Source: Candidatus Omnitrophota bacterium (GTDB lineage: Bacteria; Omnitrophota; Gorgyraeia; JAHJTE01). From it: a stretch of DNA of 64,000 bases. A program made the translations under genes and the position numbers. A model generated the notes under the pieces. It had not been told where the DNA came from. It saw only the letters and a list, made by a program, of their open reading frames with translations, and made no database searches. Position 1 is the stretch's first letter. Every line of letters starts with the position of its first letter. Positions 14,290 to 58,399 of this stretch are shown one piece after another. The DNA lies in NCBI GenBank assembly GCA_018830005.1, contig JAHJTE010000001.1, positions 709,624 to 773,623 on the forward strand, in the 5' to 3' direction.

Positions 14290-14348
14290 GTTCATACCAA
14301 AACAAATTACAAATAAAAATTAATTTGTGATTTCGGTCATTTTTTTCT

Positions 14349-16537: not shown

Positions 16538-16539
16538 GT

Positions 16540-17696: not shown

Positions 17697-19412
17697 ATGC
17701 AAGATTTATTATTGAGCGTAAAAAAGCCAGCTCGTTATATTGGCACTGAGTTTAATGGCAATCATGGCCTAAAACAAGATGTGGCTGTAAAATTCGCCAT
17801 CTGTTTTCCGGGTCTATACGAGATAGGCATGAGTAATTTGGGTTTGAGAATAATATATGGTCTTCTGAATAGTCAGCAAGATTGTTTATGCGAGAGATTC
17901 TTTCTGCCGGCACCTGATATGCTTGGATTGATAAAGAGCAAAAAGGCTAAATTTACATCCCTTGAGTCAGGACGTAGTTTAAGTGATTTTGATATTGTTG
18001 GTTTTTCACTCCAGCATGAGTTAGATTATACAAATGTATTGCACATGCTAGAGCTTGCTGGATTGCCTTTTTTTTCGAGGCAACGCCATGAAAATCATCC
18101 TTTGATAATTGCAGGAGGTCCTGCCTTAGCTAATCCTGAGCCAATAGCTGATTTTTTTGACTTATTTATTATCGGCGAGGCAGAAGAGGCCCTTCTAGAA
18201 TTGACTGCTGAATATAAAAAGTTCCCTAGCAGGCTTAATCGCAAAGAATTGCTGGCGCGGCTTTCAAAGATAGACGGCATATATGTTCCAATGCTTAAAG
18301 GCAGAGTTGGTTTTTCTGTTAGGCGCCGATTCATTAAAGACCTAAATTCATCTTTTTTTCCGCAAGACTGGATTGTTCCTTATATCCCTATTGTTCATGA
18401 TAAGATAATGCTTGAGGTAATGCGCGGCTGTCCACATTCTTGTCGCTTTTGCCAGGCGAGAATGTTTTATTCTCCTTTTAGGATAAAGAGCAAAGAAAGG
18501 ATTGTTCAACTAGGTTTAGCAGCACAGGAGAAAAGCGGCTACGAAGAGATATCGTTGTTAGGTCTATCTTCCTTGGATCATCCCCAGATAAAAGAAATCT
18601 ATAGCTGTTTGACTGATGCCTTGCGTAGTCAATGTGTCGGCGTCTCTTTAGGTTCGCTGCGACCAAGCTCTAGGGTTTTGAATCTGCTGGAGATGACAGC
18701 CAAGATAAAAAAGGTCGGACTTACTTTGGCCATAGAAAGCGGCTCAAACTGGCTGCGGCAGCTTATAAACAAGCAAATAGATATGGATTCATTAAAAGAA
18801 TTGATTCAAGCTTGTTATTCTAAAGGCCTAAGACGGATTAAGCTCTATTTTATGTTCGGCCTGCCTTTTGAGAGAGAGGATGATCTGGAATCAATTGCCG
18901 ATATAATCTACGAATTAGCTCATATAGGAGGCAGGCTTAGAAAGAATCTATTGTTTTCAGTAAGCATTAATCCTTTTATTCCTAAACCACATACTGTTTT
19001 TCAATGGCATCCTATGGATGATTTGAAGACCTTAGATAGAAAAAAGAGGTTTTTGATTTCAGCAATTTATAAGCGGATCAAGAATGTAAAGATTAGTTTT
19101 CATTCTCCTGGTATGAGTTATGTAGAGGCGCTTCTTGCTCGTGGCGACAGAAAGATGTCTGGACTTATTATCGAGGCATTTAAAAGAGGTGCGCTAATGG
19201 ACTCTTACGGTGATTATTTTAATTTTGACTTATGGCAGGAGGCTGAAAAAGCAGCTGGGATTGACGCCGGGAGTTATCTTTATCGTGAAACTATAGATGA
19301 GCAAAAATTGTGCTGGGACTATATAGATATGGGCTACGATAAAGAAAGGCTTAAAATAGAATACGAAGATGTTATTAAACTCGGGCGTATGAGGCCAGGC
19401 CAGGGGTCCTAA
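17697..19412 (+). CDS. uncharacterised radical SAM protein with an N-terminal B12-like/Rossmann region (TIGR03960-like)
   Basis: A CPHSCRFC (CX3CX2C) radical SAM cluster motif. Its position after rodA matches the TIGR03960 family context. Confidence 0.7.
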   Translation: MQDLLLSVKKPARYIGTEFNGNHGLKQDVAVKFAICFPGLYEIGMSNLGLRIIYGLLNSQQDCLCERFFLPAPDMLGLIKSKKAKFTSLESGRSLSDFDIVGFSLQHELDYTNVLHMLELAGLPFFSRQRHENHPLIIAGGPALANPEPIADFFDLFIIGEAEEALLELTAEYKKFPSRLNRKELLARLSKIDGIYVPMLKGRVGFSVRRRFIKDLNSSFFPQDWIVPYIPIVHDKIMLEVMRGCPHSCRFCQARMFYSPFRIKSKERIVQLGLAAQEKSGYEEISLLGLSSLDHPQIKEIYSCLTDALRSQCVGVSLGSLRPSSRVLNLLEMTAKIKKVGLTLAIESGSNWLRQLINKQIDMDSLKELIQACYSKGLRRIKLYFMFGLPFEREDDLESIADIIYELAHIGGRLRKNLLFSVSINPFIPKPHTVFQWHPMDDLKTLDRKKRFLISAIYKRIKNVKISFHSPGMSYVEALLARGDRKMSGLIIEAFKRGALMDSYGDYFNFDLWQEAEKAAGIDAGSYLYRETIDEQKLCWDYIDMGYDKERLKIEYEDVIKLGRMRPGQGS

Positions 19413-19467
19413 GATGATTTTGGCGAGTGATAATCTTTTAAGTTTTTTGAGTTCCTTTTAAAAGACA

Positions 19468-19496
19468 TTGACATTTAAAAAATAATCCGTTATAGT
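19468..19496 (+). promoter_or_regulatory. near-consensus sigma70 promoter TTGACA-N17-TATAGT heading island A
   Basis: TTGACA at 19468-19473, TATAGT at 19491-19496, inside the 200-bp gap before the GGDEF gene. Confidence 0.55.
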
Positions 19497-19611
19497 AAAT
19501 TAAAATGAAGTTTATTCGTTGAGGTTCTCTGGCGAAAAATGCTTAATTTATCCTGTAAGTTACTTGCTGGTAGCTTAGCAAGTAAAGGGATTCATTAAAG
19601 GAGATGTATAA

Positions 19612-21057
19612 ATGAAAAAAAATAATAAAAAATCCAATTTATCCTCGAGAAGCTTAAAGGTAAAGCTTAAGTTGGCGTTTGCGCTATCTTCGGTTATCCC
19701 TATTTTGATTTTACTTAATATGCTAAACCCTAGCTTGTTTAGTTTTACTTTCAGGCTTAACGAGATACAGCCGATAACTATTAAGTTCTGGCCAATATTT
19801 ATAATTACTACAGTGATTGTAAGTCTGGGTTATTATATCTTGAAGCTGATAATCGATCCGGTAATTTCAATAAGTCGTGATGCCAAACATATAGCCCAGG
19901 GTGATTTCGAACGCGTAATTAAGGTCGGTGCTGACAGAGGGGATGAAATCGGAGATTTGAGCTTTGCCTTAGATAAGTTAACAACGCGAATTCGTAGTTC
20001 AATGCAAGAATTGAGCCAGTACGGCGAGAAGACCAAGAAGATAAATCTGGAGATTAATAAGCGCGTAGTGGTCTTGAGTAATCTCCTGCAGATAAGCACT
20101 TTAATCTCTCAAGGCGCAAACTTAAACGAAATACTACATTTAAGTGTAGATAGGATTATGGAGGTGGGTCAGTCAGAGATAGGTTTCCTGATGGTTAAAG
20201 AGCAGATGAAAAATGTATTGACGATGAGGTCTTTACGCGGCGTAGGCGCAGGGAGATTTGAAAATCTCGAAATCGCAATTGGCGAAAATCCTCTGGCGGA
20301 TTTAATCTATAGAAAAGAGGTTATAATCCTTGATCAAAACAACAAAGATACATCAAGAGAGGTTAACGCCTGGCAGGAAAAGTTTGCAATGCGCAATGCC
20401 GTCATAATACCTTTGTTTGTACGCGGCGATCCCTTGGGTATTATCTGTATTGCCAATAATAAAGAGAACTTTTCTTATACTTCTGACGATTTAGAAGTGA
20501 TTGAAATCTTCGTTAAACAGATAGCGATTGCGCTTGAGACAGATTTCTTACATTTCAGAGTCCAAAAATTAGAGGTAAAGGATGCCCTTACCGGACTTTA
20601 CAATGAAAGATTTGTAAAGGCACGTTTAGATGAAGAGATCAAGAGGGCAATTATTTACCAGAGGCCATGTGCCTTCCTCTTGTTCAATGTTGACAATTTC
20701 AAACGTTACTATACACTTTTTGGCGGCCTTGCCTCTGAGGCCGCACTTAAAAGGATTGCTCTCGTTCTGGAAGATAGTATTACTGATGTAGATAGGGTGG
20801 GGCGTTTTGGTGATAATGATTTTGCTGTAATTTTACCTGAGCGTAATAAAAAAGAGGCCAATAAGATTGCAGAAGATATAAGAAAGAAACTAGAGTTTGT
20901 TTTTAAAGAAGAACCAGACGCCAACAAGAGAATAACCTTAAGCGGTGGCGTAAGCGAAAATCCCATTGATGGCGTTTCTGCACAAGAGCTGGTTGTTAAA
21001 GCGCGGCAGATGCTGATGGAAGCAAAGGCAAGAGGCAAGAACCAGATAAAGGGTTAG
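19612..21057 (+). CDS. membrane HAMP-GAF protein with a degenerate GGDEF domain (GGEEF replaced by GDNDF, no RxxD I-site)
   Basis: Two TM helices and a HAMP region (DLSFALDKLTTRIRS), then a GAF-like region. The GGDEF fold is recognisable (LTGLYNERF...FNVDNFKRY...GRFGDNDFAVILPE) but the catalytic motif is altered. Confidence 0.8.
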   Translation: MKKNNKKSNLSSRSLKVKLKLAFALSSVIPILILLNMLNPSLFSFTFRLNEIQPITIKFWPIFIITTVIVSLGYYILKLIIDPVISISRDAKHIAQGDFERVIKVGADRGDEIGDLSFALDKLTTRIRSSMQELSQYGEKTKKINLEINKRVVVLSNLLQISTLISQGANLNEILHLSVDRIMEVGQSEIGFLMVKEQMKNVLTMRSLRGVGAGRFENLEIAIGENPLADLIYRKEVIILDQNNKDTSREVNAWQEKFAMRNAVIIPLFVRGDPLGIICIANNKENFSYTSDDLEVIEIFVKQIAIALETDFLHFRVQKLEVKDALTGLYNERFVKARLDEEIKRAIIYQRPCAFLLFNVDNFKRYYTLFGGLASEAALKRIALVLEDSITDVDRVGRFGDNDFAVILPERNKKEANKIAEDIRKKLEFVFKEEPDANKRITLSGGVSENPIDGVSAQELVVKARQMLMEAKARGKNQIKG

Positions 21058-21066
21058 AGTTTAACT

Positions 21067-21510
21067 ATGAGCGCATTTAAAAAAGTAATGGCAAAACAAT
21101 TAGGGGAGCTTCTGATTGAACGTGGAGTTATCGGGGCTAAACATCTTGAGAAGGCGCTTGAAGTTCAGAAGGAAAAAGGCGGTCTTATCGGGGAAATCCT
21201 TGTAGAATTAGGTTTTGCAAAGGAAGAGGATATAGCTCATGCATTAACTGCCCAGTACGGGTTTCCATACTTACCTTTAAAAAATTATGATATAGATTTA
21301 GAAATTGTCCGGATTATCCCTAAGAATGTAGCTATCCAGTACTGTCTTATTCCCATAGATAAGATCGGCACCTCGCTAACAGTTGCTATGTCTAATCCAT
21401 TAAATGTTCAGGCGATCGAGGATATAGAACTACTTACCAAGTGCAAGGTTCAGACTTTTGTAAGCACCCCTTCAGATATTAGAGAGACAATAAAGAAATA
21501 TTATAAATAA
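21067..21510 (+). CDS. stand-alone MshEN/T2SSE_N domain protein, a putative c-di-GMP receptor
   Basis: Two tandem copies of the MshEN-type motif, KQLGELLIERGVIGAKHLEKALEVQ and LIGEILVELGFAKEEDIAHALTAQ. No ATPase domain. Confidence 0.75.
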   Translation: MSAFKKVMAKQLGELLIERGVIGAKHLEKALEVQKEKGGLIGEILVELGFAKEEDIAHALTAQYGFPYLPLKNYDIDLEIVRIIPKNVAIQYCLIPIDKIGTSLTVAMSNPLNVQAIEDIELLTKCKVQTFVSTPSDIRETIKKYYK

Positions 21511-21558
21511 AACCCAATATTCCTCATCTTTGGTATTTATTTTTAATTTTTAATAACT

Positions 21559-23274
21559 ATGGTTTCTTTAAAAGAACGCCTTACAGAGATCCTGATTAAG
21601 AATAAAATCATCACGCGGGAGAACCTGGATAAGGCGATTGCAGTTCAGTCTAAAGAAGGCGGAAGGCTGAGCGATATCCTTGTGCGTTTAGGATATGTAG
21701 ACCAGAAAGACTTAGTTATTGCCTTAAGTGAAGGTTTGGGCCTGCCCCCGATTGACCTAAACCGTTTCAAGATTGAATCGGAAGTAACTAAACTTATCCC
21801 CCAGGAGACCGCAAGGCACTACCAGATAATCCCTGTATCAAAAATGGGTAATACGCTTACCTTGGCTATGGCCGATCCTCTCAACGTCTTTGCTATTGAT
21901 GCAGTCAAGACCTTGACAGGTTTTGATATAAATCCGATTATCGCAAAGCCGGAAGATGTGATGAATGCAATTACTCAATATTACGGAGAGGACTCTTACC
22001 AGGCTATAGAAGATATAATTGATGAAATGGGTAAAGATAGCGAGCTGGAAGTTATTAAGGATGAAAAGATAGATTATGCAGACGTGCAGGAATTGGCTCG
22101 TCTTACTCAAGAAGCCCCTGTAATTAAGATTACCAATCTTTTCCTAAAGCAGGGAATTGAAGCCAGGGCCTCGGATATATTAATTGAGCCGTTTGAGAAA
22201 AGTGTTCGCGTTAGGCTACGTGTTGATGGCATGTTAAAAGAGATTGAATCCCCGCCTAGATCTTTACATGCTTCCGTAGTCTCTAGGATTAAGGTAATGT
22301 CTGGAATGGATATAGCCGAACATAGGCTTCCTCAGGATGGAAGATTTAAGATCAAGCTAGAAGGCAAGGATGTTGATTTTCGTGTTTCAGTTTTGCCTTC
22401 TAGCTTTGGAGAAAAGGTTGCTTTGCGTATCCTGGATAAAACTACGGCAAAATTGGATATTACCCAACTTGGATTTGACAAGCATGCCGTGGAGGTTCTA
22501 AAAAAAAGTGCCCTTAAGCCGCATGGTATGATTCTTACCTGCGGCCCTACAGGAAGCGGTAAGACAACCACGTTATATTCTTTGCTTAAATTTATCGATG
22601 CCCCAGATAAGAACATTATTACAGTCGAAGACCCTGTAGAATACCAACTTCGCGGCATTAATCAGGTCACTGTAAATGTAGATATTGGACTTACATTTGC
22701 CAGTTGCCTGCGTTCTATCTTGCGGCAGGATCCTGACATTATTATGGTAGGTGAAATTCGCGATTTTGAAACAGTCGATATTTCAATTAAGGCCGCGTTA
22801 ACAGGCCATCTTGTTTTGAGTACGTTACATACTACTACAGCTCCTGGTTCTGTGATTCGGCTTGGAGATATGGGCGTAGAACCATTTTTAATTACCTCTA
22901 GTGTTATTGCTGTTATGTCCCAGAGGCTACTACGCAAGCTTTGCGAACGCTGTAAAGAAGAGATAGTAGTTAAAGAAGAGGTCTCCAAGAAGGTAGGCAT
23001 AAAGACAGGGACAAAGGTCTTTGCTGCAACGGCCTGCAAGAATTGTCTTAATACTGGTTATGCTGGCCGTTTAGGAATAATAGAGATTTTAGAATTAACC
23101 CCCAAGGTTAAAGAGTTGATACTTGGTCGGGTGCCGGAGGATGTGATTAAGAAAGCTGCTCGCGAGGAAGGGATGAAGACACTTCAGGAGGCTGGTATAG
23201 AAAAAGTTATCGAGGGCCTCACTTCTATAGACGAAGTTGTGCGCCTTACAGCGCCTGATAAAGAAATGGCATAA
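21559..23274 (+). CDS. pilB: type IV pilus assembly ATPase PilB/GspE (copy 1)
   Basis: A GspE-N domain, Walker A GPTGSGKTT, Asp and His boxes and a C4 Zn motif CERC...CKNC. Confidence 0.9.
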   Translation: MVSLKERLTEILIKNKIITRENLDKAIAVQSKEGGRLSDILVRLGYVDQKDLVIALSEGLGLPPIDLNRFKIESEVTKLIPQETARHYQIIPVSKMGNTLTLAMADPLNVFAIDAVKTLTGFDINPIIAKPEDVMNAITQYYGEDSYQAIEDIIDEMGKDSELEVIKDEKIDYADVQELARLTQEAPVIKITNLFLKQGIEARASDILIEPFEKSVRVRLRVDGMLKEIESPPRSLHASVVSRIKVMSGMDIAEHRLPQDGRFKIKLEGKDVDFRVSVLPSSFGEKVALRILDKTTAKLDITQLGFDKHAVEVLKKSALKPHGMILTCGPTGSGKTTTLYSLLKFIDAPDKNIITVEDPVEYQLRGINQVTVNVDIGLTFASCLRSILRQDPDIIMVGEIRDFETVDISIKAALTGHLVLSTLHTTTAPGSVIRLGDMGVEPFLITSSVIAVMSQRLLRKLCERCKEEIVVKEEVSKKVGIKTGTKVFAATACKNCLNTGYAGRLGIIEILELTPKVKELILGRVPEDVIKKAAREEGMKTLQEAGIEKVIEGLTSIDEVVRLTAPDKEMA

Positions 23275-23280
23275 ATTAAA

Positions 23281-24981
23281 ATGGCAACTTTAAGCAATAA
23301 GATATTAGAGATTTTAGTTAAGACAAAGCGCATCTCCCTTAAGCAGAAGCAGCAGGTTTTGTCTTTAAAGAAGCAAAAGGATTCATCAATCAAAGATATC
23401 CTTATTAATGAGGGTTTTATTTCTAATAAGGAGTTGTTAGCAGTTCTTTCAGAAGAATTTAGATTACCGCCTTTAGATCTATCTAAATATAAAATTGATG
23501 CGGAGATAATCAAGATTATTCCCGAACGCCTGGCTCGCCAGCATCATCTTATCTGCGTTTCTCAGATTGGCTCTACGATTACTGTGGCAATGAGTGATCC
23601 TTTAAATATATTCGCGCTTGATGATTTGCGGATTTTGACAAAAAAGGAAATTGATCCTGTAATATCAACTGAAAGCGATATAAACAAAGCTATTGAAAAA
23701 TATTATTGCGGGGACGTGGTTGCTATTTCTTCTTTGCTTGATGAGGGAGATAAAACAGCAGAGGTATTAAGTGTTGATGGCGAACAATCAAATATATCAG
23801 CTGTTATCGAAGAGAGCCAAAAGGCCCCGATTGTAAAAGTCGTTGATTTGATTATTGCCGAGGCCCTTTATAAACGGGCTTCTGATATTCATGTTGAGCC
23901 GGCTGAAGAAGGTTTACGAGTGCGTTACCGCATAGATGGCAATCTGTATGACACTCTTACATTACCGAAAAGCAATCAAAATGCTATTTTAGCGCGACTT
24001 AAGATTATGAGCGGTTTAGACATAACCGAATCAAGGCTTCCGCAAGACGGACGCTTTAAGATTAGGTTGGAATCAAAGGAGATAGACTTTCGTGTTTCTG
24101 CACTGCCGACGACATTTGGTCAAAAGTTCGTTCTGAGGGCATTGGATAAATCAAGTCTTTCTATGGGGTTGGATAAGCTTGGTTTCTTTCCAGAGAGATT
24201 GGCGCTGTTTAAACAGGCGATAGCAAAGCCTTATGGAATGATTTTAGTTACAGGGCCAACAGGAAGCGGGAAATCTACAACCCTTTATTCTATATTGAAT
24301 CGATTGAATACGATGGAAAAAAACATAATTACTGTTGAAGACCCTGTTGAGTATCAGATTGAGGGCATCACCCAGATACATGTAAAACCTGAGATTGGCC
24401 TTACCTTTGCTGCTGGATTACGTTCCATACTGCGTCAAAGTCCGGATATCATTATGATTGGTGAGATTCGCGATTCCGAGACAGCAGATATAGCTGTGCG
24501 TGCTTCTCTAATTGGGCAGTTAGTTTTTTCTACCTTGCACACAAATGATGCTGCTGGCGCAATCACACGTTTAATTGATATGGGGGTTGAGCCATTTCTT
24601 GTTGCCTCTTCAATTATTATGACCTGTGCACAGAGGCTTTGTCGTAAAATATGTAATGCCTGCAAAGAGCCAGTCGAAATCCCGGACAGTATCCTTAAAA
24701 AATTAACTCTAAGGCCAACCAAGACAGATACCTTTTATGCAGGACGCGGCTGTAACCACTGCAACAATACTGGTTATTTTGGCAGATTGGCAGCTTTAGA
24801 AGTCTTGATGATTGACGATAATATATGCAGGATGATTTTAAAAAAATCTTCTAGTGATCAGATTAAGGAATATGCAATTAAAAATAATGGCATGCAGACA
24901 ATCTGGGATGATATGATGCGTAAGCTTAAAATGGGTGCTACTACTTACGAGGAAGTTTTACGCGTAGCGATTGATACATAA
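23281..24981 (+). CDS. pilB: type IV pilus assembly ATPase PilB/GspE (copy 2, tandem paralogue)
   Basis: Same architecture as copy 1. Walker A GPTGSGKST, C4 motif CRKICNAC...CNHC. Confidence 0.9.
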   Translation: MATLSNKILEILVKTKRISLKQKQQVLSLKKQKDSSIKDILINEGFISNKELLAVLSEEFRLPPLDLSKYKIDAEIIKIIPERLARQHHLICVSQIGSTITVAMSDPLNIFALDDLRILTKKEIDPVISTESDINKAIEKYYCGDVVAISSLLDEGDKTAEVLSVDGEQSNISAVIEESQKAPIVKVVDLIIAEALYKRASDIHVEPAEEGLRVRYRIDGNLYDTLTLPKSNQNAILARLKIMSGLDITESRLPQDGRFKIRLESKEIDFRVSALPTTFGQKFVLRALDKSSLSMGLDKLGFFPERLALFKQAIAKPYGMILVTGPTGSGKSTTLYSILNRLNTMEKNIITVEDPVEYQIEGITQIHVKPEIGLTFAAGLRSILRQSPDIIMIGEIRDSETADIAVRASLIGQLVFSTLHTNDAAGAITRLIDMGVEPFLVASSIIMTCAQRLCRKICNACKEPVEIPDSILKKLTLRPTKTDTFYAGRGCNHCNNTGYFGRLAALEVLMIDDNICRMILKKSSSDQIKEYAIKNNGMQTIWDDMMRKLKMGATTYEEVLRVAIDT

Positions 24982-25001
24982 ATTTTTAAAGGGGAGATAA
25001 A

Positions 25002-26201
25002 ATGACAGTTTTCAAATATACGGCGAAAAATAGATCAGGTAAAAAGATCTCAGGCATGCTAGAAGCTGATAATCAGAATCTGGCTATTGAGACTTTGCGT
25101 AAGAAAGAATTAATACCTATTAGCCTATCGGAAGAGAAGGCAAAACGGCGTGTTAGTGGGCGCAAGGTTAAATTGGATGATCTTGTTATTTTTTCTCGTC
25201 AGCTGGCTACGATGGTTGATTCAGGAATTCCCCTTGTTCAGGCATTAAGCATTCTAGGAGAGCAGGTGCAAAAGGAAAATTTCCGGCAGGTGATTTTAAG
25301 GATACGTCAAGATATCGAAGAAGGTGCAGGTTTTTGTGATGCCCTGGCTAAGCACACAGCAGTATTTTCTCCGCTTTACATTAATATGGTAAAGGCAGGA
25401 GAAGCAAGTGGTTTATTGAATGAGATATTAGATAGGTTAGCTAATTATTTAGAAAAGGCAAGCGCCTTGCAGAGAAAGGTAAAATCTTCCTTGACCTATC
25501 CAATCGTGGTAATTGCCATGGCCTTAATTATTACTATCTTTTTGCTGGTTAAGGTTGTTCCAACATTTAGAGGTATATTTGATATGCTTGGCGGTACCTT
25601 GCCTTTACCTACGCGGATCTTGATTGGTTTCAGCGATATGTTGCGGCATTCATTCTTGTATATTGTAATTTTCTTAGTTGGTGTAGTATTCCTGCTTAAG
25701 AAATGGTCAAAGACTCCAAGGGGGAGAAGGACCATTGATTATTACCTACTCAAGCTTCCTGTCTTTGGCCCACTTTTAAAGAAAGTAGCAATAGCTAAGT
25801 TCAGCCGGACACTTTCTACGTTAGTAAGAAGCGGCGTTCCTATCTTAGGTTCCTTAGAGATTGTAGGCAAGACAGCAGGCAATAAAATAGTTGAAGAGGC
25901 ATTAGATAACGCGCGCAAGTCTATTAAAGAAGGTGAGCCTATTTCCGGCCCCTTGAGTGAAAGCGATGCGTTTCCGCCTATGGTAGTAAGGATGATTGCT
26001 GTAGGCGAACAGACAGGCGAGTTGGAGAAGATGTTAAGCAAGATCGCTGACTTTTATGATGAGCAGGTTGATGCCACAGTAAGTTCTATGACAAGTTTAA
26101 TTGAGCCAATGGTCATCGCCTTTTTAGGTGTTATTATCGGTGGCATTGTAGTCTCATTATTCTTGCCCATATTTAAGATTACGGAACTATTGGGAAGATG
26201 A
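25002..26201 (+). CDS. pilC: type IV pilus platform protein PilC (GspF family)
   Basis: Two GspF repeats and three TM helices. It follows the pilB genes. Confidence 0.9.
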   Translation: MTVFKYTAKNRSGKKISGMLEADNQNLAIETLRKKELIPISLSEEKAKRRVSGRKVKLDDLVIFSRQLATMVDSGIPLVQALSILGEQVQKENFRQVILRIRQDIEEGAGFCDALAKHTAVFSPLYINMVKAGEASGLLNEILDRLANYLEKASALQRKVKSSLTYPIVVIAMALIITIFLLVKVVPTFRGIFDMLGGTLPLPTRILIGFSDMLRHSFLYIVIFLVGVVFLLKKWSKTPRGRRTIDYYLLKLPVFGPLLKKVAIAKFSRTLSTLVRSGVPILGSLEIVGKTAGNKIVEEALDNARKSIKEGEPISGPLSESDAFPPMVVRMIAVGEQTGELEKMLSKIADFYDEQVDATVSSMTSLIEPMVIAFLGVIIGGIVVSLFLPIFKITELLGR

Positions 26202-26275
26202 GGTGTTTTTAGATCAGGGCTACAGGAATAATTTTTTAACCTAACTCTTTCATTATTAATTTGTTAAGAAAATTC

Positions 26276-26305
26276 TTGACTTTGTAATAGTTAGGTGTCT
26301 ATAAT
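26276..26305 (+). promoter_or_regulatory. sigma70-type promoter TTGACT-N18-TATAAT for the riboswitch-pilA transcript
   Basis: TTGACT at 26276-26281, TATAAT at 26300-26305, about 50 nt upstream of the GEMM element. Confidence 0.5.
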
Positions 26306-26352
26306 ATATTTTACAGGGCCTAATTTTTATGGTATACTTGAGGTAACATTGA

Positions 26353-26468
26353 AAAAGGCAAACCAGTCGTAAGGCTGGGACGCAAAGCTAAAGGGCCTTG
26401 TGAAAGGGTAGCCAGTTACCAATGAGAATAACCTATTTCAGGTGACTGGAATAGGTTTTATTTTTTTG
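26353..26468 (+). ncRNA. c-di-GMP-I (GEMM) riboswitch-like leader with a terminator expression platform (copy 1)
   Basis: GGCAAACC-AGTC-GTAA(GNRA)-GGCTGG-GACGCAAAGC-TAAAGGGCC matches the GEMM core (Vc2: GGCAAACCAUUCGAAAGAGUGGGACGCAAAGCC). It is followed by hairpin CCTATT...AATAGG plus a T-run at 26430-26468. Confidence 0.8.
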
Positions 26469-26578
26469 GCCGGGACTAATAAATGTCAAGCCAGAGGAAA
26501 ACGAAATTATTATTATTTTTCTAGAAACTGGGTTGATATGATAAGTTCAATCAAGGCCAAGAGAGGAGGTTGTTAATT

Positions 26579-27007
26579 ATGAGAAACAGATCAGGTTTTA
26601 CCTTGGTTGAAATCATGATTGTTGTTGCTATTATTGCTTTATTGGCAGCCATAGCAATACCTAACCTGTTGCGTGCTCGTCTCAATGCTAACGAGTCTGC
26701 ATCGATTGCTGCTATGCAGACGCTTTCTACTGCAGCCCAGAGTTATCGTTCAGCTAATCCTAGTTATCCTACTAACTTAGCTGCTTTGTCTAACGCAACT
26801 CCACCTTATATTGATTCTGTATTAGCAGGTGGAACAAAATCAGGCTATGCATTTATTTTGACAGGTACCACAAATGCATTTACTGCAACTGCTGCTCCTA
26901 GCACTGTGGGCACTACGGGTAATAGATATTTCTTTGTTGATGAAAGTGGTGTTGTCAGGTATGCTAGTGGCGCTGCAGCTACATCTGCAAGCAGCCCAAT
27001 TGAATAA
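26579..27007 (+). CDS. pilA: type IV major pilin (PilA-like), leader MRNRSG followed by FTLVEIM
   Basis: GGAGG RBS 9 nt upstream of the ATG at 26579 (the track start at 26570 is a TTG). Class III signal peptide G|FTLVEIMIVVAIIALLAAIAIPNL, 142 aa, Ser/Thr-rich C-terminal tail. Confidence 0.85.
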   Translation: MRNRSGFTLVEIMIVVAIIALLAAIAIPNLLRARLNANESASIAAMQTLSTAAQSYRSANPSYPTNLAALSNATPPYIDSVLAGGTKSGYAFILTGTTNAFTATAAPSTVGTTGNRYFFVDESGVVRYASGAAATSASSPIE

Positions 27008-27035
27008 GGATTCAACTTAAGGATTTACGAGAAAA

Positions 27036-27066
27036 GGCGCTTCTTTTTAAGAGGCGCCTTTTTTCT
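27036..27066 (+). terminator. intrinsic terminator after pilA
   Basis: GGCGCTTCT-ttta-AGAGGCGCC hairpin followed by TTTTTTCT. Confidence 0.65.
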
Positions 27067-27086
27067 AACTAGATATCTTTAAAGGA

Positions 27087-28856
27087 ATGAAAAGATCACA
27101 ACAAATTATACTTATTATCCTTGTCGGTTTATTGTTTTATTTTAATAGTCTTTTTAATGGGCTTGTTTGGGATGATGAGTTTTTAATCAAGGACAACCCT
27201 TATATCAGAAGCATTCCGACTGCTTTTTCTTACGCCTTTTCTAATGATCTATTCCCGGGAGAGCTACTATTTAAGCGGACTAATTATTATCGGCCCCTGC
27301 AGACACTAAGTTACTCTCTAGATTTTTTTATCTGGAAAGATACGCCCTTTGGTTTTCATCTCGCTAATTTAATCCTGCATATTATTAATGCCCTTTTAAT
27401 ATATTTAATTATTTCCTGTCTTTATAATCTGCCTTTGGTTTCTTTTGTTTGTGCCTTATTCTTTGTAGCCCATCCTATTCATCATGAGGCAGTGAGCTAT
27501 ATCTCTGGCCGTGCAGATTTATTGGCAGCATTTTTTATCTTGAGCTCTTTTTATTGCTTCCTTAAATATAGACTCGAGAATATAGCTGTGCGGCGCAATT
27601 ATTTCCTTGTTTTATCATTTATTTGTTTCTTTTTAGCACTTCTTTCTAAGGAGTATGCACTTATCCTGCCTTTCCTATTTTTATCCTTTGATTTTTCTTT
27701 TCAAAAATTAAATAGAAAAAATCTAGGCCAATACGTTTTCTTCTTACCCCTGATATTCCTCTTTATCATGTTGCGACTTTCTGCTTTAGGATTGGATAAT
27801 TCATTGCTGGGCGGCAGATATGCACATTTACTTTGGCAGGAATTGCCGATTCGTTTTTTTGGTTTTATAAAAAGCATACCGCTTTACTTAGGTATTTTAA
27901 TTTTTCCGGTTGATTTGCATATGCGCAGAGCCTTTCCCAGACCTGCAGGCCTTTTCGATCCTTTAGTATGGATTGGTATTTTTATTTTGCTCAGTTGTTA
28001 CTTCATTTTTTATAAAAGGAGAAAACAGGAGCCGCTTTATTTATTTTTGTTTCTTTGGTTTTTGATTCCTGTAGTTTCTCAATCACAGCTAACGCTTTCC
28101 GGATTTGGCTTTGCCGAGCACTTTTTATACCTTGCCTCAATGGGCGTCTTCTTTGCTTTTGCAAAGGTTTTTGTGGGCCTTTTTCTTAAATTTAAAGCAA
28201 GGGCGCAAAAACAGAGATTTATCGTTACTATACTTTTAATCTTACTTAGTTTTTATGGCAGCTTGACGAGTGTCCATAATCTTAACTGGAAGGATAGTCT
28301 GACATTCTATAAGTGGACGCTGAAGTTTTCACCCGAGAGCATTAAGTTGCGCATAAATCTAGCCAGAGAGTATATTGCCCTAGGTAGGGATGATCTGGCC
28401 TTAGTTGAATTCTTACGTGCTAAAAAGTTATTAGAGCAAGTGGAGGTATCTAAATATAAAGATAAACCAATTTTAGATTGGACTCTGAATGAGGCGATAG
28501 TAGTCGGCTATTACAATGTGGCTGTGCTTCATGCCAGCCAGAAAGATTATACAAGGGCGGAGCAGGAATATCGGCTGTCCCTTGCGATTAAGCCAAATTT
28601 TAATAAGGCACGTAATAATCTAGCTGCCTTATTGACCAAGCTAGGCAGAGATAAAGAGGCGATAGAGCAATTGTCGCTTGTTTTGAGTTCTGATCCAGAA
28701 GATTTAAAGGCATATTATAATCTGGGCGCAATCTTAGCGAATCTAGGCGAAGATGAAAAGGCAAGGCAGGTCTGGCAAGATGGCTTAAAGATAGATCCGG
28801 ATGATGCCAAGATTGGCGATGCGCTTGCGAGGCTCCTGGAAGAGAAGAAGAGATGA
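27087..28856 (+). CDS. PMT/TMTC-like GT-C glycosyltransferase domain (DUF1736-like, NGLVWDDEF motif) fused to a C-terminal TPR array
   Basis: About 11 TM helices and an acidic DD(E/F) motif in the first periplasmic loop, as in protein O-mannosyltransferases. C-terminal TPR repeats (YYNVAVLHASQKDYTRAEQEYRLSLAIKPN...). Confidence 0.65.
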   Translation: MKRSQQIILIILVGLLFYFNSLFNGLVWDDEFLIKDNPYIRSIPTAFSYAFSNDLFPGELLFKRTNYYRPLQTLSYSLDFFIWKDTPFGFHLANLILHIINALLIYLIISCLYNLPLVSFVCALFFVAHPIHHEAVSYISGRADLLAAFFILSSFYCFLKYRLENIAVRRNYFLVLSFICFFLALLSKEYALILPFLFLSFDFSFQKLNRKNLGQYVFFLPLIFLFIMLRLSALGLDNSLLGGRYAHLLWQELPIRFFGFIKSIPLYLGILIFPVDLHMRRAFPRPAGLFDPLVWIGIFILLSCYFIFYKRRKQEPLYLFLFLWFLIPVVSQSQLTLSGFGFAEHFLYLASMGVFFAFAKVFVGLFLKFKARAQKQRFIVTILLILLSFYGSLTSVHNLNWKDSLTFYKWTLKFSPESIKLRINLAREYIALGRDDLALVEFLRAKKLLEQVEVSKYKDKPILDWTLNEAIVVGYYNVAVLHASQKDYTRAEQEYRLSLAIKPNFNKARNNLAALLTKLGRDKEAIEQLSLVLSSDPEDLKAYYNLGAILANLGEDEKARQVWQDGLKIDPDDAKIGDALARLLEEKKR

Positions 28857-36874: not shown

Positions 36875-38729
36875 AAAATTAGCAATTTCTATAAGTATTT
36901 TCTTTTTCTTATTTTTGATATTACAAAATACTTCAGGTCCTGAGTCATTAGTTATCGCAGAGGAATTAGAGCTGGAGGATTTATCGCAACTCTTTGAGGA
37001 AGAGATTGATGTAGAAATTTTTGGCCTTGAGGATGAGGTTTCTTCTGAGATTATGGCTGAAGAGCTTAATGAAGAGGAATTAAAGGCGGTAGAGGCTGAG
37101 TTTGAAGAGGCTGAAGAAATCTTTGGCCTAGGTCAAGAAGAGGAGGCCTTGGATATCCCAGAAGAGGTTGCAGCGGAAATTTTGGCAGAAGAGCTCCCTA
37201 TTGTTACAGAATCTGAGTTGTCGTCTGAATTAGACCAGCTTGAGCCGGCAGGAAAGAAGCTGGCCGAAGAGGTTACTGAGGTGCAAGAGGGGAAGACGCA
37301 AGAGGAGGAGTTACCGGTTACCAAGGTATCCCTTGATTTTAAAGAGGCAGATATTAGAAATGTGTTAAGAATCCTTTCTTATAAAAGTGGAGTTAATATT
37401 GTTGCAAGCCCTGAAGTAACCGGCTTAGTTACTATAAGACTTACTGATGTTCCTTGGGATAAGGCATTAGATGTGGTGCTTGATACTTATGGTTTCGGAC
37501 ATGAACGCAAGGAAAACATTATTACGGTTTATCCTATGGAAATGCTTACTGCAAGAAAAAGCCAAGAGCAGGCGTTAGCGGCAGTTCAGCCTACAGTAAC
37601 TAAAGTTATAAAACTAAAGTTTATTGATGCTACTGATATGAAGAAGGCGCTTGATCCACAGCTATCTCCGCGCGGCAGGGTTACTGTTTTGGAGGCAACC
37701 GGTCAAGCTGGATGGGAATTTGGCGGCTCAGAGTTAGGTAAAAGAGCGCGCATAGGTGAAAAAACGAGCAGATCGAAAATGCTCATTATCTCTGATATCC
37801 CTCCGGTATTAGAAAGGCTAGAGGAGGTTATTGCTGAATTAGATGTGCGGCCAGAGCAGGTGTTAATTGAAGTGAGACTTTTGGAAGTAAATCGCGATAA
37901 ATTATCTGACTTAGGTATGGAGTGGGGTACAGGCTCTGATGGTACAGGCTTTATCGAGACAAGCGGTAAGGGTTTAGACGGAAGCTCAGAGACTCAACTT
38001 AGCGTCCAAGGCGAAACGCTTCAAGTATCGCCTTCGACGTTTTCTTCTAAGTCTGGTTTTTCTGGAATTACACCGTTTAATGCTGGCCTTACTGCTACAT
38101 TCCAAAAGATTACCGGCAGTCAGTTTCAGGCTATATTACATGCTGTAGCAGAGGACGTAGAAGTAAATACACTTTCAGCACCACGCATCTTGACATTGAG
38201 TGATCAGGAGGCGACTATCCTAATAGGAAGCAAATATCCTATTCTTACCTCTGATGTAAGTACAGAGGCAGGGGCGACAGTTACCACAACACTTGATTAC
38301 TATGAGGATATCGGAATCCAGCTTAATGTTGTGCCTCAGGTTAATGACGATGGCTATATTAATCTAATCGTACATCCTGCGGTAACTTCTATTTCAAGCT
38401 ACATAGGGGACAATTCCTATCCTGTAATAATAACCCGTGAGGCAGAGACACAGCTTTTGATTAAAGATGGCGAGACAATAGTCATTGGTGGACTGCTTAA
38501 GGATGTAAAGGGAGAGTCAGAAATTGGCATTCCATTTTTAAGTAAGATCCCTATTCTAGGTTTTTTATTTAGGCGCACGGTAGTAGATATAGAAAAGATC
38601 GATCTTTTAATATTTATAACTGCAAGAGTAGTTAAATCCGAAGGGGACCTGATAACGTTTAAACAAAGCGTAGAAACTCCGGTCAGAAATTTAATACCAG
38701 CAGAGCCCGTAATTAAAGAAGAAGAGTAA
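36858..38729 (+). CDS. pilQ: type IV pilus secretin PilQ with an acidic Glu-rich N-terminal extension
   Basis: GTG start after an AAGGAGGG RBS. AMIN/N0-N1-like domains and a C-terminal secretin signature (IVIGGLLKD...EIGIPFLSKIPILGFLF). Confidence 0.9.
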   Translation: MQVKIKKLAISISIFFFLFLILQNTSGPESLVIAEELELEDLSQLFEEEIDVEIFGLEDEVSSEIMAEELNEEELKAVEAEFEEAEEIFGLGQEEEALDIPEEVAAEILAEELPIVTESELSSELDQLEPAGKKLAEEVTEVQEGKTQEEELPVTKVSLDFKEADIRNVLRILSYKSGVNIVASPEVTGLVTIRLTDVPWDKALDVVLDTYGFGHERKENIITVYPMEMLTARKSQEQALAAVQPTVTKVIKLKFIDATDMKKALDPQLSPRGRVTVLEATGQAGWEFGGSELGKRARIGEKTSRSKMLIISDIPPVLERLEEVIAELDVRPEQVLIEVRLLEVNRDKLSDLGMEWGTGSDGTGFIETSGKGLDGSSETQLSVQGETLQVSPSTFSSKSGFSGITPFNAGLTATFQKITGSQFQAILHAVAEDVEVNTLSAPRILTLSDQEATILIGSKYPILTSDVSTEAGATVTTTLDYYEDIGIQLNVVPQVNDDGYINLIVHPAVTSISSYIGDNSYPVIITREAETQLLIKDGETIVIGGLLKDVKGESEIGIPFLSKIPILGFLFRRTVVDIEKIDLLIFITARVVKSEGDLITFKQSVETPVRNLIPAEPVIKEEE

Positions 38730-38763
38730 AACTGTTTAAAATATTTTACAAATTGCTTTAATT

Positions 38764-38801
38764 AACCCTTGGCAGATTTGTTTGTCAGGGGTTATTTTCT
38801 T
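38764..38801 (+). terminator. possible intrinsic terminator after pilQ
   Basis: CCCTTGGCAGA-tttg-TTTGTCAGGGG hairpin (11 bp with 3 G·U pairs), then TTATTTTCTT. Confidence 0.35.
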
Positions 38802-38823
38802 AAGGCACAATTGGCGAAGTCAA

Positions 38824-39132
38824 TTGAAAGCGAAGGTTATTATCGAAATAAAATTTTCAAAGTGCGGCCTAATGCGTTACATATCTCATTTGGATTTGTT
38901 GCGGTTATTTAGGCGTGCAGCAAGCAGGGCAAAGATTGCCCTAGAGTTAACACGCGGCTTTAATCCGCATCCAAAAATAAGTATAAATAGGGCATTGAAA
39001 TTAGGCGAAGAATCCGATGCGCTTTTTTGTCAATTTGGACTAGAAGCAAAAATGGATACACAGGAGTTTGCAAGCCGTTTGCAGCAGGAGTTACCCGAAG
39101 GGATAAGCATAAAGCAAGCCAAACTAATATGA
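38824..39132 (+). CDS. TIGR03936/DUF2344-like 'radical-SAM-linked' protein, short form
   Basis: IEIKFSKCGLMRYISHLDLLRLFRRAASRA...GFNPHPKIS matches the family N-terminus. The start is proposed at the in-frame TTG at 38824 (the track start at 38782 is also a TTG). The stop overlaps the rng ATG (ATGA). Confidence 0.5.
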   Translation: MKAKVIIEIKFSKCGLMRYISHLDLLRLFRRAASRAKIALELTRGFNPHPKISINRALKLGEESDALFCQFGLEAKMDTQEFASRLQQELPEGISIKQAKLI

Positions 39133-40735: not shown

Positions 40736-41056
40736 ATGTATGCCATAATCAAGAGCGGTTCAAAACAATACCGCGTAGAAAAGAATTCCGAGATAGATGT
40801 CGAGAAGATATCATTGCGTCCTCGCGCCAAGACAATAACCCTGGATGAGGTGTTGTTGTTATCTGCTGCAAAAGAGATAAGCGTTGGCAGGCCATATCTT
40901 AAAAATGTAAGTATTAAGGCTGAGGTTATAGCGCCGATTATCAAGGCAGATAAAGTGATTGCTTTTAAATTTCGCAGGAGGAAAGATTCGCATTGGAAGA
41001 AGGGACATCGTCAGAAACTAACCCGCCTTAAAATAAAAGAGATCACAGTCAGTTAA
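40736..41056 (+). CDS. rplU: 50S ribosomal protein L21
   Basis: MYAIIKSGSKQYRV... is near-universal L21. Confidence 0.95.
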   Translation: MYAIIKSGSKQYRVEKNSEIDVEKISLRPRAKTITLDEVLLLSAAKEISVGRPYLKNVSIKAEVIAPIIKADKVIAFKFRRRKDSHWKKGHRQKLTRLKIKEITVS

Positions 41057-41082
41057 TAATCTGTGCAATCTATTTAAAAGAG

Positions 41083-43084: not shown

Positions 43085-43090
43085 GTAATT

Positions 43091-52227: not shown

Positions 52228-52435
52228 TGTAAAATTAGTCTAGCATAAAAGTGGGGTTTAGGCAAGGCTAAAATCTCTGAGTATGTTTTTATAACTTTAA
52301 CATTAGCAATAGGTTGCATTAAGGATATCTTTTGTTTTCAGCTTGAAATCATGCATTGTCTATGTTATACTTAAATTGTTAGGAAATAAGCTCGAAAAAA
52401 CCCTGAATCTAGTGTTCTGTATAGGGCATTAGTCG

Positions 52436-58374: not shown

Positions 58375-58399
58375 TTAGTTGACAATTAGTTAAGTACGA

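What the first reader, a model, noticed from the sequence alone, without database searches (positions are those of the whole stretch)
17697..39132. Island A (c-di-GMP/T4P) sits between the TIGR03960 radical SAM gene and a TIGR03936-like 'radical-SAM-linked' gene
Per the TIGRFAMs descriptions, TIGR03960 radical SAM proteins and TIGR03936/DUF2344 proteins are normally adjacent or fused. The TIGR03936-rng-rplU-obg order is a widespread conserved block. Here the radical SAM gene ends at 19412. Its presumed partner, carrying the IEIKFSK...HLDLLRLFRRA...GFNPHPKIS signature, begins at about 38824, directly before rng. The 19.4-kb stretch between them holds GGDEF, MshEN, pilBBC, pilA, two GT-C, minor pilins, the PilX-like gene and pilMNOPQ. 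That is compatible with an insertion of this module into the rodA/rng backbone, but no scars such as an integrase or direct repeats are seen. The TIGR03936-like ORF is also unusually short (about 102-116 aa) and runs into rng, so it may be a remnant.
Basis: inference. Interest (0 to 1): 0.65.

Follow-up and report, generated by a model that had tools for sequence, protein, structure and literature searches.

The report
Ancient pilus cluster splitting a gene pair
In this Omnitrophota genome a pilus gene cluster lies between two genes that are neighbours in other bacteria, but the layout is old and shared across the group, not a recent insertion, and the short second gene is a conserved half-size version, not a remnant.

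Summary
A TIGR03960 radical SAM gene (17697-19412) and a TIGR03936/DUF2344 gene (38824-39132, 102 aa) lie 19.4 kb apart, with a c-di-GMP/type IV pilus cluster between them, and rng starts at the DUF2344 stop (ATGA overlap).

The window is an Omnitrophota MAG contig. Relatives with radical SAM identity from 61% down to 45% keep the same order at both ends. On two other contigs the pair is again 18-19.5 kb apart. Composition and codon usage match the flanks, and there is no tRNA, boundary repeat or integrase. So this is not a recent island.

A cultured Bacillota (Tepidimicrobium) and a metagenome locus have the contiguous order radical SAM-DUF2344-rng-rplU-obg. The split is therefore probably an ancient insertion that became fixed.

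The short gene is not a remnant. In 80 metagenome loci, 72 carry a 99-114 aa form. rng follows it in 63 of 63 cases, and a radical SAM gene never precedes it. Every full-length form with upstream sequence is preceded by one. The short forms make one clade. Models show the full-length protein has a whole pseudouridine-synthase-like fold, and the short form is only its N-terminal lobe.

This is a modest new variant of an uncharacterised family.

The parts
13501..17676 (+). mreC, mreD, pbp2 (mrdA) and rodA: the upstream housekeeping backbone
   Evidence: Pfam and NCBIfam hits: MreC, MreD, TIGR03423 at 541 bits, TIGR02210 at 392 bits. The same order is seen in L017-L024.
17697..19412 (+). TIGR03960 B12-binding-type radical SAM protein, 571 aa, intact CxxxCxxC motif
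   Evidence: 562.2 bits against a cutoff of 462.3. Radical_SAM_N2 plus Radical_SAM domains. CPHSCRFC at residue 245.
19468..19496 (+). promoter-like site (TTGACA-17-TATAGT) in the 199-nt gap after the radical SAM gene
   Evidence: Matches 11 of 12 consensus positions. This is a consensus match only, not shown to function.
19612..21057 (+). HAMP-GAF-GGDEF diguanylate cyclase
   Evidence: GGDEF at 102 bits, plus GAF_2 and HAMP. It is 69-74% identical in L016-L018.
21067..21510 (+). stand-alone MshEN protein with a c-di-GMP-binding motif, 147 aa
   Evidence: PF05157 at 68.8 bits; NF053729 at 59.7 bits against a cutoff of 38. It is 85-90% identical in close relatives.
21559..24981 (+). two PilB-type assembly ATPases, each with an MshEN N-domain (21559-23274 and 23281-24981)
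   Evidence: T2SSE at 448 and 438 bits; TIGR02538 at 647 and 640 bits, just under the 675.65 cutoff.
25002..26201 (+). PilC platform protein
   Evidence: T2SSF at 215 bits, matching in 2 stretches.
26348..26424 (+). c-di-GMP-I-GGC riboswitch aptamer upstream of the pilin gene
   Evidence: RF03167 at 66.8 bits against a gathering score of 59. An aptamer sits at the same place in L016, L017 and L018.
26430..26457 (+). terminator-like hairpin with a T-run directly after the aptamer; likely the expression platform
   Evidence: 12-pair stem followed by TTATTTTTTT. The role is inferred.
26570..27007 (+). major pilin candidate
   Evidence: N_methyl motif; weak PilA, GspG and ComGC matches.
27087..30790 (+). 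two membrane proteins with C-terminal TPR regions (27087-28856 and 28853-30790); the GT-C assignment is unverified
   Evidence: Only the TPR regions match any model. The L017 homologue has a precomputed PMT_2 hit.
30903..32075 (+). two minor pilins
   Evidence: N_methyl motifs.
32144..32230 (+). c-di-GMP-I riboswitch aptamer upstream of the PilX-like gene and pilMNOPQ
   Evidence: RF01051 at 51.8 bits against a gathering score of 35. Conserved in L025 and L026.
32359..34367 (+). PilX-like protein (500 aa) and an unassigned 169-aa ORF
   Evidence: PilX_N and DUF4900, both weak. Homologues are in the same place in L025 and L026.
34364..38729 (+). pilM, pilN, pilO, a pilP-like gene and the pilQ secretin
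   Evidence: PilM_2 at 142 bits, PilN, PilO, and Secretin at 151 bits. The genes overlap or abut one another.
38763..38794 (+). conserved 14-pair hairpin between pilQ and the DUF2344 gene; a terminator or a 5'-UTR element
   Evidence: Folding z-score -3.7. The same core, CCCUUGGC...GUCAAGGG, folds in L025 and L026 with z-scores of -4.4. It is absent in the distant L030 and L037.
38824..39132 (+). half-size TIGR03936/DUF2344 protein, 102 aa: only the N-terminal lobe of a pseudouridine-synthase-like fold
   Evidence: 114.4 bits against a cutoff of 71.9, covering profile positions 3-95 of 209. hhalign against the full-length family: probability 100%, short residues 4-102 align to full-length residues 1-98 of 239. 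AlphaFold2 pLDDT 89.9; best PDB matches TruA and Pus1 at TMq 0.70.
39129..40625 (+). rng (RNase G/E family), start codon overlapping the DUF2344 stop
   Evidence: TIGR00757 at 475.8 bits. ATGA overlap.
40736..44353 (+). rplU, a short obg (318 aa), proB and proA: the downstream backbone
   Evidence: The same order is seen in L025-L027 and in many metagenome loci.

Best explanation
The interval is a vertically inherited gene order shared across Omnitrophota, not a mobile island.

A widely conserved housekeeping array runs cell-shape genes, TIGR03960 radical SAM, TIGR03936/DUF2344, rng, rplU, obg. It was interrupted between the radical SAM gene and DUF2344 by a type IVa pilus cluster in an ancestor of the Omnitrophota sampled here, and the result has been kept since.

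The pilus block works as its own set of transcription units. It has a promoter-like site after the radical SAM gene, a diguanylate cyclase, MshEN-type c-di-GMP receptors, and two c-di-GMP class I riboswitches, one before the pilin gene and one before the pilX-like gene and pilMNOPQ.

In the same lineage DUF2344 lost its C-terminal lobe. What remains is a conserved protein of about 104 aa consisting of the N lobe of a pseudouridine-synthase-like fold. It stays translationally coupled to RNase G.

Shown here: the gene identities, the conserved synteny, the single clade of short forms, the fold assignment, and the strict link between being short and being separated from the radical SAM gene.

Inferred: the direction of the event (insertion rather than excision elsewhere); that the short protein is an RNA-binding partner of the RNase G step; and that the lost C lobe served the partnership with the radical SAM enzyme.
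For: Origin: the window is GCA_043815545.1, contig JBDRIX010000001.1, and its DUF2344 protein is named as Omnitrophica by NCBI.

Radical SAM side: rodA is followed by the radical SAM gene in relatives at 58-61% identity (L016-L018) and at 46-47% identity (L019-L024). In five of the six contexts the pilus genes follow directly; in L023/L024 only a response-regulator/HD-domain gene and then an rRNA operon at the contig end are seen.

DUF2344 side: pilMNOPQ-DUF2344(short)-rng-rplU-obg-proBA in L025-L027.

Both genes appear on one contig twice, 18.1 kb apart (JBFMEB010000020.1) and 19.5 kb apart (Ga0394675_035985).

Census of 80 metagenome loci:
- 72 short forms, 99-114 aa.
- rng follows in 63 of 63 with at least 300 nt of downstream sequence.
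- Upstream neighbour in the 50 with at least 700 nt: pilQ 43, a pilin 5, nothing recognised 2, radical SAM 0.
- All 5 full-length or contig-cut forms preceded by something other than pilus genes are preceded by a radical SAM gene.

Canonical contiguous order: L090 and Tepidimicrobium xylanilyticum. L001 has radical SAM-DUF2344(227 aa)-one regulator-rng.

No island signatures: RSCU r = 0.961, tetranucleotide r = 0.952-0.958, no tRNA, no boundary repeats. Pilus proteins are more conserved against relatives (PilB, PilC and MshEN at 78-90%) than the flanking genes (57-69%).

Short form is not decaying: the best 120 homologues are all 91-125 aa. There are 17 invariant columns. K13, H22, D24, G45, G61 and P91 are invariant across short and long forms together. 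In a neighbour-joining tree, 134 of 138 short forms fall in one clade that contains a single long form.

Fold: the short model has pLDDT 89.9 and matches TruA and Pus1 at TMq 0.70. The full-length model has pLDDT 92 and matches PUS3, TruA, PUS10, Pus1 and Cbf5 over 240-290 columns at E = 6e-7 to 1e-5. Pfam places DUF2344 in the pseudouridine synthase clan (PMC7955657).

Riboswitches.

Type IVa pili are common in all Omnitrophota classes (PMC10066038).
Against: - The direction of the event rests on parsimony from a few outgroup loci: L001, L090, L108, and the full-length forms L097, L098, L103 and L107. The node on the Omnitrophota tree was not located, because the taxonomy of the metagenome contigs is unknown.
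- Content between the two genes varies. GGDEF is replaced by a response-regulator/HD-domain gene in distant relatives. An rRNA operon lies downstream of the radical-SAM-side genes in L019 and L023. A pilin rather than pilQ precedes DUF2344 in 5 of 50 loci. The block may therefore have been built up in steps rather than by one insertion.
- No expression or biochemical data exist for the short protein. Whether it still works with the radical SAM enzyme in trans is unknown.
- The hairpin before the gene could be a terminator, which would leave the promoter for DUF2344-rng unexplained.
Confidence: 0.85

Rival explanations
1. The block is a recently acquired horizontal island carrying c-di-GMP and type IV pilus genes that inserted into the rodA/rng backbone of this genome.
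For: The canonical partners are separated by 19.4 kb. A contiguous backbone exists elsewhere. GC dips slightly to 0.36-0.37 at 26-31 kb.
Against: The same order is found in relatives down to 45-47% radical SAM identity and in dozens of metagenome loci. There is no compositional contrast, tRNA, repeat or integrase. The pilus proteins are more conserved than the flanking genes. The riboswitch positions are conserved.
Confidence: 0.03
2. The 102-aa DUF2344 ORF is a truncated, decaying remnant left over from the rearrangement.
For: It covers only positions 3-95 of the 209-position TIGR03936 profile. It is less than half the usual 200-285 aa length.
Against: The best 120 homologues are all 91-125 aa and, apart from the window's own cluster, 51-77% identical. 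In the census, 72 loci have lengths of 99-114 aa with a standard deviation of 2.3. Family-wide invariant residues are kept. The AlphaFold2 model is confident and compact, pLDDT 89.9. The gene is always coupled to rng.
Confidence: 0.03
3. The split order is the older state, and radical SAM-DUF2344 adjacency or fusion arose elsewhere by loss of the intervening genes.
For: The direction was not tested on a species tree. The content of the interval varies among Omnitrophota.
Against: Full-length, adjacent or fused forms dominate the family: 7387 representatives, most of the best 150 are 200-285 aa, and one is an 833-aa fusion. Short forms make up one clade. The same backbone, from pbp to nadD, is seen contiguous in a Bacillota. 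A half-fold is unlikely to be ancestral to a complete pseudouridine-synthase-like fold.
Confidence: 0.05
4. The short DUF2344 is still the radical SAM enzyme's partner, acting in trans. The separation has no functional meaning, and the C lobe was dispensable.
For: Both genes are retained, intact, on the same strand of the same contig in three genomes. The radical SAM protein keeps its cluster motif and scores well above its cutoff.
Against: Being short and being separated from the radical SAM gene go together without exception in the census, which suggests that the two changes are linked. The short gene is coupled to rng, not to the radical SAM gene. No direct test was possible.
Confidence: 0.35

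Closest known systems
Canonical TIGR03936/DUF2344 'radical SAM-linked' proteins, for example Tepidimicrobium xylanilyticum P0392 (239 aa), which directly follows a TIGR03960 gene
   Same: The N-terminal 98 residues align at 42% profile identity (hhalign probability 100%, E = 2e-41). The motifs ISHLDLMRLF, GFNPHPK and LPEGI are shared. The HMM score is above the family cutoff. rng follows directly, then rplU and obg.
   Different: The whole C-terminal lobe is missing (profile positions 96-209). The gene is 19.4 kb from the radical SAM gene instead of abutting or fused to it. It overlaps rng by 4 nt.
TruA / Pus1 / PUS3 pseudouridine synthases (PDB 1dj0, 4j37, 9enc)
   Same: They share the fold. 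The short model matches one lobe at TMq about 0.70. The full-length model matches the whole catalytic domain at E = 6e-7 to 1e-5. There is a weak sequence match at the LPEGI motif. Both belong to the same Pfam clan (PMC7955657).
   Different: Sequence identity is 9-14%. By eye, no RTDxGVHA-type catalytic Asp motif is recognisable; this was not tested by superposition. The Omnitrophota protein has only half the fold, so it cannot form the inter-lobe cleft as a monomer.
Type IVa pilus gene clusters of Omnitrophota (Seymour et al. 2023, PMC10066038)
   Same: A PilB/PilC/pilin/PilMNOPQ set, reported as common in every class of the phylum.
   Different: In the passages of that paper retrieved by term search, the position between the radical SAM gene and DUF2344/rng is not mentioned, and the term c-di-GMP does not occur in the main text.
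c-di-GMP control of type IV pili through MshEN ATPases (Vibrio MshE) and a riboswitch before a pilin gene (Clostridioides difficile pilA1). Both are cited from my own knowledge.
   Same: MshEN domains with the c-di-GMP motif occur on PilB1 and on a stand-alone protein. A riboswitch followed by a terminator-like hairpin sits before the pilin gene.
   Different: The aptamers here are class I (RF01051, RF03167), whereas the C. difficile example is class II. A second riboswitch precedes the pilX-like gene and pilMNOPQ.
Genomic islands / integrative elements
   Same: A 19-kb block of accessory-looking genes interrupts a conserved housekeeping order.
   Different: There is no integrase, tRNA, flanking repeat or compositional contrast. 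The block is present in all relatives examined.

Membership tests
TIGR03960 B12-binding radical SAM | HMM score at or above the curated cutoff over most of the profile | tested here: met
   562.2 bits against 462.3, covering profile positions 2-579 of 605.
TIGR03960 B12-binding radical SAM | CxxxCxxC motif for the radical SAM iron-sulfur cluster | tested here: met
   CPHSCRFC at residue 245. Radical_SAM domain at 64 bits.
TIGR03936 / DUF2344 radical SAM-associated protein | HMM score at or above the curated cutoff | tested here: met
   TIGR03936 at 114.4 bits against 71.9; PF10105 at 113.3 bits against 23.8.
TIGR03936 / DUF2344 radical SAM-associated protein | Full-length two-lobed architecture, about 200-285 aa | tested here: not met
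   Only profile positions 3-95 of 209 are covered. The protein aligns to residues 1-98 of a 239-aa member. A C-lobe HMM finds nothing in the window or in the 1.17 Mb of related loci searched.
TIGR03936 / DUF2344 radical SAM-associated protein | Gene adjacent to or fused with a TIGR03960 gene | tested here: not met
   The genes are 19.4 kb apart on the same strand. None of the 50 short-form loci with enough upstream sequence has a radical SAM gene upstream.
Pseudouridine synthase (TruA/Pus1 type) | Complete two-lobed catalytic fold | tested here: not met
   The short model matches only one lobe: TMq 0.70 but TMt 0.26-0.30. The full-length relatives do have the whole fold.
Pseudouridine synthase (TruA/Pus1 type) | Catalytic aspartate in the conserved loop | not tested
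   No residue-level superposition was available. By eye, the position after the first helix reads GFNPHPK rather than GRTDxGVHA.
Genomic island / integrative mobile element | Integrase or transposase, a tRNA or other attachment site, and flanking direct repeats | tested here: not met
   No such domains among the ORFs. No tRNA in the window. No shared word of 9 nt or more at the boundaries.
Genomic island / integrative mobile element | Composition or codon usage different from the host flanks | tested here: not met
   RSCU r = 0.961; tetranucleotide r = 0.952-0.958 for all segment pairs.
Genomic island / integrative mobile element | Patchy presence among related genomes | tested here: not met
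   Pilus genes flank the DUF2344 gene in every relative examined and follow the radical SAM gene in five of six contexts (the sixth, L023/L024, runs into an rRNA operon at the contig end), down to 45% radical SAM identity.
Type IVa pilus system | Core set: PilB ATPase, PilC platform, prepilin-type pilins, PilMNOP alignment complex, PilQ secretin | tested here: met
   No PilT retraction ATPase or PilD prepilin peptidase was seen within 19.4-38.8 kb.
c-di-GMP class I riboswitch | Covariance-model score at or above the Rfam gathering threshold | tested here: met
   RF03167 at 66.8 bits against 59 (26348-26424); RF01051 at 51.8 bits against 35 (32144-32230).

The most novel reading that the evidence does not exclude
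The loss of the C lobe and the separation from the radical SAM gene are two sides of one functional change. In the canonical system, the C lobe of DUF2344 docks the pseudouridine-synthase-like RNA-binding protein onto the TIGR03960 radical SAM enzyme, which would make the pair an RNA-modifying enzyme plus substrate adaptor feeding an RNase G step in ribosome or RNA maturation. In Omnitrophota, only the N lobe is kept. It may act as a homodimer that rebuilds the pseudo-symmetric cleft. It now serves as an RNA-binding accessory of RNase G and no longer depends on the radical SAM enzyme. If true, this natural 'domain dissection' would give the first handle on which part of this widespread uncharacterised pair does what.
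Probability: 0.2. Interest if true: 0.5.

Novelty: new variant of a known kind. Interest (0 to 1): 0.3.

Why it matters
TIGR03960 and TIGR03936 form a very widespread gene pair of unknown function: the search found 7387 cluster representatives of the DUF2344 side alone. The pair usually sits next to RNase G and ribosome-assembly genes. Here a whole bacterial lineage keeps only the N-terminal lobe of the DUF2344 partner. It keeps that lobe glued to rng rather than to the radical SAM gene. This natural experiment separates the two lobes and the two partnerships, and it points to an RNA-related role, because the fold is that of pseudouridine synthases. For genome scanning there is also a practical lesson: a block that interrupts a conserved gene pair can be an old, fixed feature of a lineage, and synteny in relatives has to be checked before calling it an island.

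Tried and rejected
- The genome-contig scan with rng found no close relative. The best hits were 37-42% identical, mostly Polaromonas, and only L001 was informative.
- A literature search for DUF2344, TIGR03936 and TIGR03960 returned two papers, of which only one was relevant, and only for the Pfam clan membership.
- An HMM of the C-terminal lobe was searched against six-frame translations of the window and all loci (1.17 Mb). It hit only the full-length forms, so there is no separate C-lobe gene nearby. The rest of the genome could not be searched.
- hhalign of the N half against the C half of full-length proteins found no detectable internal repeat (probability 2%). A tandem-duplication origin is therefore supported only by the fold and by the literature.
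- A profile search of PDB sequences gave only weak matches to Pus1 and TruA (E = 0.16-0.45).
- dN/dS was not attempted. The nearest orthologues are 60-77% identical at the protein level, so synonymous sites would be saturated.
- The GT-C assignment of the two TPR proteins could not be confirmed with Pfam or NCBIfam.

Full report
**Observation.**
The window is part of contig JBDRIX010000001.1 of GCA_043815545.1. NCBI labels its DUF2344 protein as coming from a Candidatus Omnitrophica bacterium.

All genes from 13.5 to 44.4 kb are on the + strand. In order they are:
- mreC, mreD, pbp2, rodA
- a TIGR03960 radical SAM gene (17697-19412; 562 bits against a cutoff of 462; CPHSCRFC cluster motif)
- HAMP-GAF-GGDEF, a stand-alone MshEN protein, two PilB-type ATPases, PilC, a pilin
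- two TPR membrane proteins, two minor pilins, a PilX-like protein, one unassigned ORF, PilMNOPQ
- a 102-aa TIGR03936/DUF2344 protein (38824-39132; 114 bits against a cutoff of 71.9)
- rng, rplU, obg, proB, proA

The DUF2344 match covers only positions 3-95 of the 209-position profile. Its TGA overlaps the rng ATG (ATGA).

**Is it an island?**
Composition says no.
- GC is 0.36-0.43 throughout.
- Codon usage of the block correlates with that of the flanks at r = 0.961.
- Tetranucleotide profiles of the three segments correlate equally well with one another (0.952-0.958).
- There is no tRNA, no boundary repeat of 9 nt or more, and no integrase-like domain.

Synteny is decisive. Radical SAM homologues at 58-61% identity (L016-L018) and at 46-47% identity (L019-L024) all follow rodA. 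Five of these six contexts are followed by GGDEF and/or MshEN-pilB-pilB-pilC. In the sixth (L023/L024) only a response-regulator/HD-domain gene and then an rRNA operon at the contig end are seen. Short DUF2344 homologues at 53-65% identity are preceded by pilMNOPQ and followed by rng-rplU-obg-proBA. On two other contigs both genes are present, 18.1 and 19.5 kb apart.

The pilus proteins are better conserved against these relatives (78-90% for PilB, PilC and MshEN) than the flanking housekeeping proteins (57-69%). Type IVa pilus clusters are reported as common in every class of Omnitrophota (PMC10066038). The block is therefore a fixed, vertically inherited part of these genomes.

**Was there ever an insertion?**
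Probably, but long ago. A metagenome scan with a DUF2344 alignment returned 80 loci, which I classified with tblastn.
- 72 carry a short form of 99-114 aa (mean 104, standard deviation 2.3).
- rng follows in 63 of the 63 that have at least 300 nt of downstream sequence.
- Of the 50 with at least 700 nt upstream, 43 are preceded by pilQ, 5 by a pilin gene, 2 by nothing recognised, and none by a radical SAM gene.
- The five full-length or contig-cut forms that are not preceded by pilus genes are all preceded by a radical SAM gene.

L090 reads M23 peptidase-radical SAM(613 aa)-DUF2344(240 aa)-rng-rplU-Prp-rpmA-obg. The cultured Tepidimicrobium xylanilyticum has the same order. L001 has radical SAM-DUF2344(227 aa)-one regulator-rng.

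Across the family, full-length proteins of 200-285 aa dominate and a fusion exists (833 aa). The short protein aligns to their residues 4-98. Parsimony therefore puts the contiguous order first and the split as derived.

The interval also varies among Omnitrophota. GGDEF is replaced by a response-regulator/HD-domain gene in distant relatives, and an rRNA operon lies in the interval in L019 and L023. It may have grown in steps.

**Is the short gene a remnant?**
No.
- The 120 best database clusters are all 91-125 aa; apart from the window's own cluster (100%) they are 51-77% identical to the window protein.
- An alignment of 61 of them has 17 invariant columns.
- K13, H22, D24, G45, G61 and P91 are invariant across short and full-length proteins together.
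- In a neighbour-joining tree of the N-terminal domain, 134 of 138 short forms fall in one clade that contains a single long form. This points to one truncation event.
- An HMM of the missing C-terminal part finds nothing in the window or in 1.17 Mb of related loci.

**What is the protein?**
The AlphaFold2 model of the short form (pLDDT 89.9) is a beta-alpha-beta-beta-alpha-beta unit. Its best PDB matches are one lobe of TruA, Pus1 and PUS3 (TMq about 0.70, probability 1.0).

The model of a full-length member (pLDDT 92, pTM 0.86) matches the whole catalytic domain of PUS3, TruA, PUS10, Pus1 and Cbf5 over 240-290 columns (E = 6e-7 to 1e-5).

A profile-profile comparison aligns short residues 4-102 to full-length residues 1-98 (probability 100%, E = 2e-41). 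A weak sequence match to Pus1 and TruA falls on the shared LPEGI motif. Pfam places DUF2344 in the pseudouridine synthase clan, whose fold is described as a tandem of two dissimilar moieties (PMC7955657). Consistent with that description, the N and C halves show no detectable sequence similarity.

The Omnitrophota protein is thus the N lobe alone of a pseudouridine-synthase-like fold. By eye, the usual catalytic-Asp motif is not recognisable; I did not test this.

**How it most likely works.**
*Shown.* The pilus block has its own signals:
- a promoter-like site in the 199-nt gap after the radical SAM gene;
- a c-di-GMP-I-GGC aptamer plus a terminator-like hairpin before the pilin gene;
- a second class I aptamer before the pilX-like gene and pilMNOPQ.

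Both aptamer positions are conserved in close relatives. A 14-pair hairpin between pilQ and DUF2344 is conserved in the nearest relatives.

*Inferred.*
- The pilus genes are transcribed and regulated separately from the housekeeping array that surrounds them.
- DUF2344 and rng are co-translated.
- The short protein acts as an RNA-binding partner of the RNase G step.
- The lost C lobe served the link to the radical SAM enzyme. The basis for this last point is that being short and being separated from the radical SAM gene coincide without exception.

Whether the short protein still works with the radical SAM enzyme in trans is open.

**Verdict.**
The 'island' reading is not supported except as an ancient, fixed rearrangement. 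The 'remnant' reading is refuted. What is new is modest: a lineage-wide half-size TIGR03936 variant, uncoupled from its radical SAM gene but still coupled to rng.

Noticed in passing
window 26348-26424, 32144-32230, 52431-52551, 57171-57290, 58395-58484 (all + strand): Five c-di-GMP class I riboswitch aptamers in one 64-kb window (RF03167 twice, RF01051 three times). Two lie inside the pilus block and are conserved in relatives. The three downstream ones, and the genes they control, were not examined.
   Followed up: partly
window 38763-38794; L025 about 9960-9992; L026 about 9959-9990: A strong hairpin between pilQ and the DUF2344-rng pair has a conserved sequence core, CCCUUGGC...GUCAAGGG, in the three closest genomes (z-scores -3.7 to -4.4). 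It is absent in distant relatives. It could be the pilus-operon terminator or a 5'-UTR element regulating rng.
   Followed up: partly
window 40736-42039; L025-L027: rplU is followed directly by obg, with no rpmA (L27) or Prp gene between them. Obg is short (317-323 aa) and lacks the C-terminal domain. In the Bacillota comparators the order is rplU-Prp-rpmA-obg with a 424-aa Obg.
   Followed up: no
L019 19213-21716; L023 13305-18761: In more distant Omnitrophota an rRNA operon (16S, two tRNAs, 23S) lies just downstream of the radical-SAM-side genes: after pilC in L019, and after a response-regulator/HD-domain gene in L023. Both contigs end there.
   Followed up: partly
window 19612-21057 compared with L019, L021, L023: The c-di-GMP enzyme in the block differs by lineage. 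Close relatives have a HAMP-GAF-GGDEF cyclase directly after the radical SAM gene. Distant relatives instead have a response-regulator/HD-domain protein, likely a c-di-GMP phosphodiesterase.
   Followed up: no
window 21067-24981: There are three MshEN N-domains in a row. The c-di-GMP-binding motif model scores 59.7 bits in the stand-alone protein, 52.5 bits in the first PilB, and only 23.7 bits (below the cutoff of 38) in the second PilB. This suggests that only some of them bind c-di-GMP.
   Followed up: no
window 19.4-38.8 kb compared with L016-L018, L025, L026: The pilus proteins PilB, PilC and MshEN are 78-90% identical to those of relatives. The neighbouring housekeeping proteins (radical SAM, RodA, PBP2, RNase G, Obg) are only 57-69% identical. 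The pilus motor is under unusually strong constraint.
   Followed up: no
L031, L060, L062, L068, L077, L085, L087, L106: In a minority of metagenome loci a pilin-like gene, not pilQ, sits directly upstream of the short DUF2344-rng pair. This is a variant layout of the same junction.
   Followed up: no
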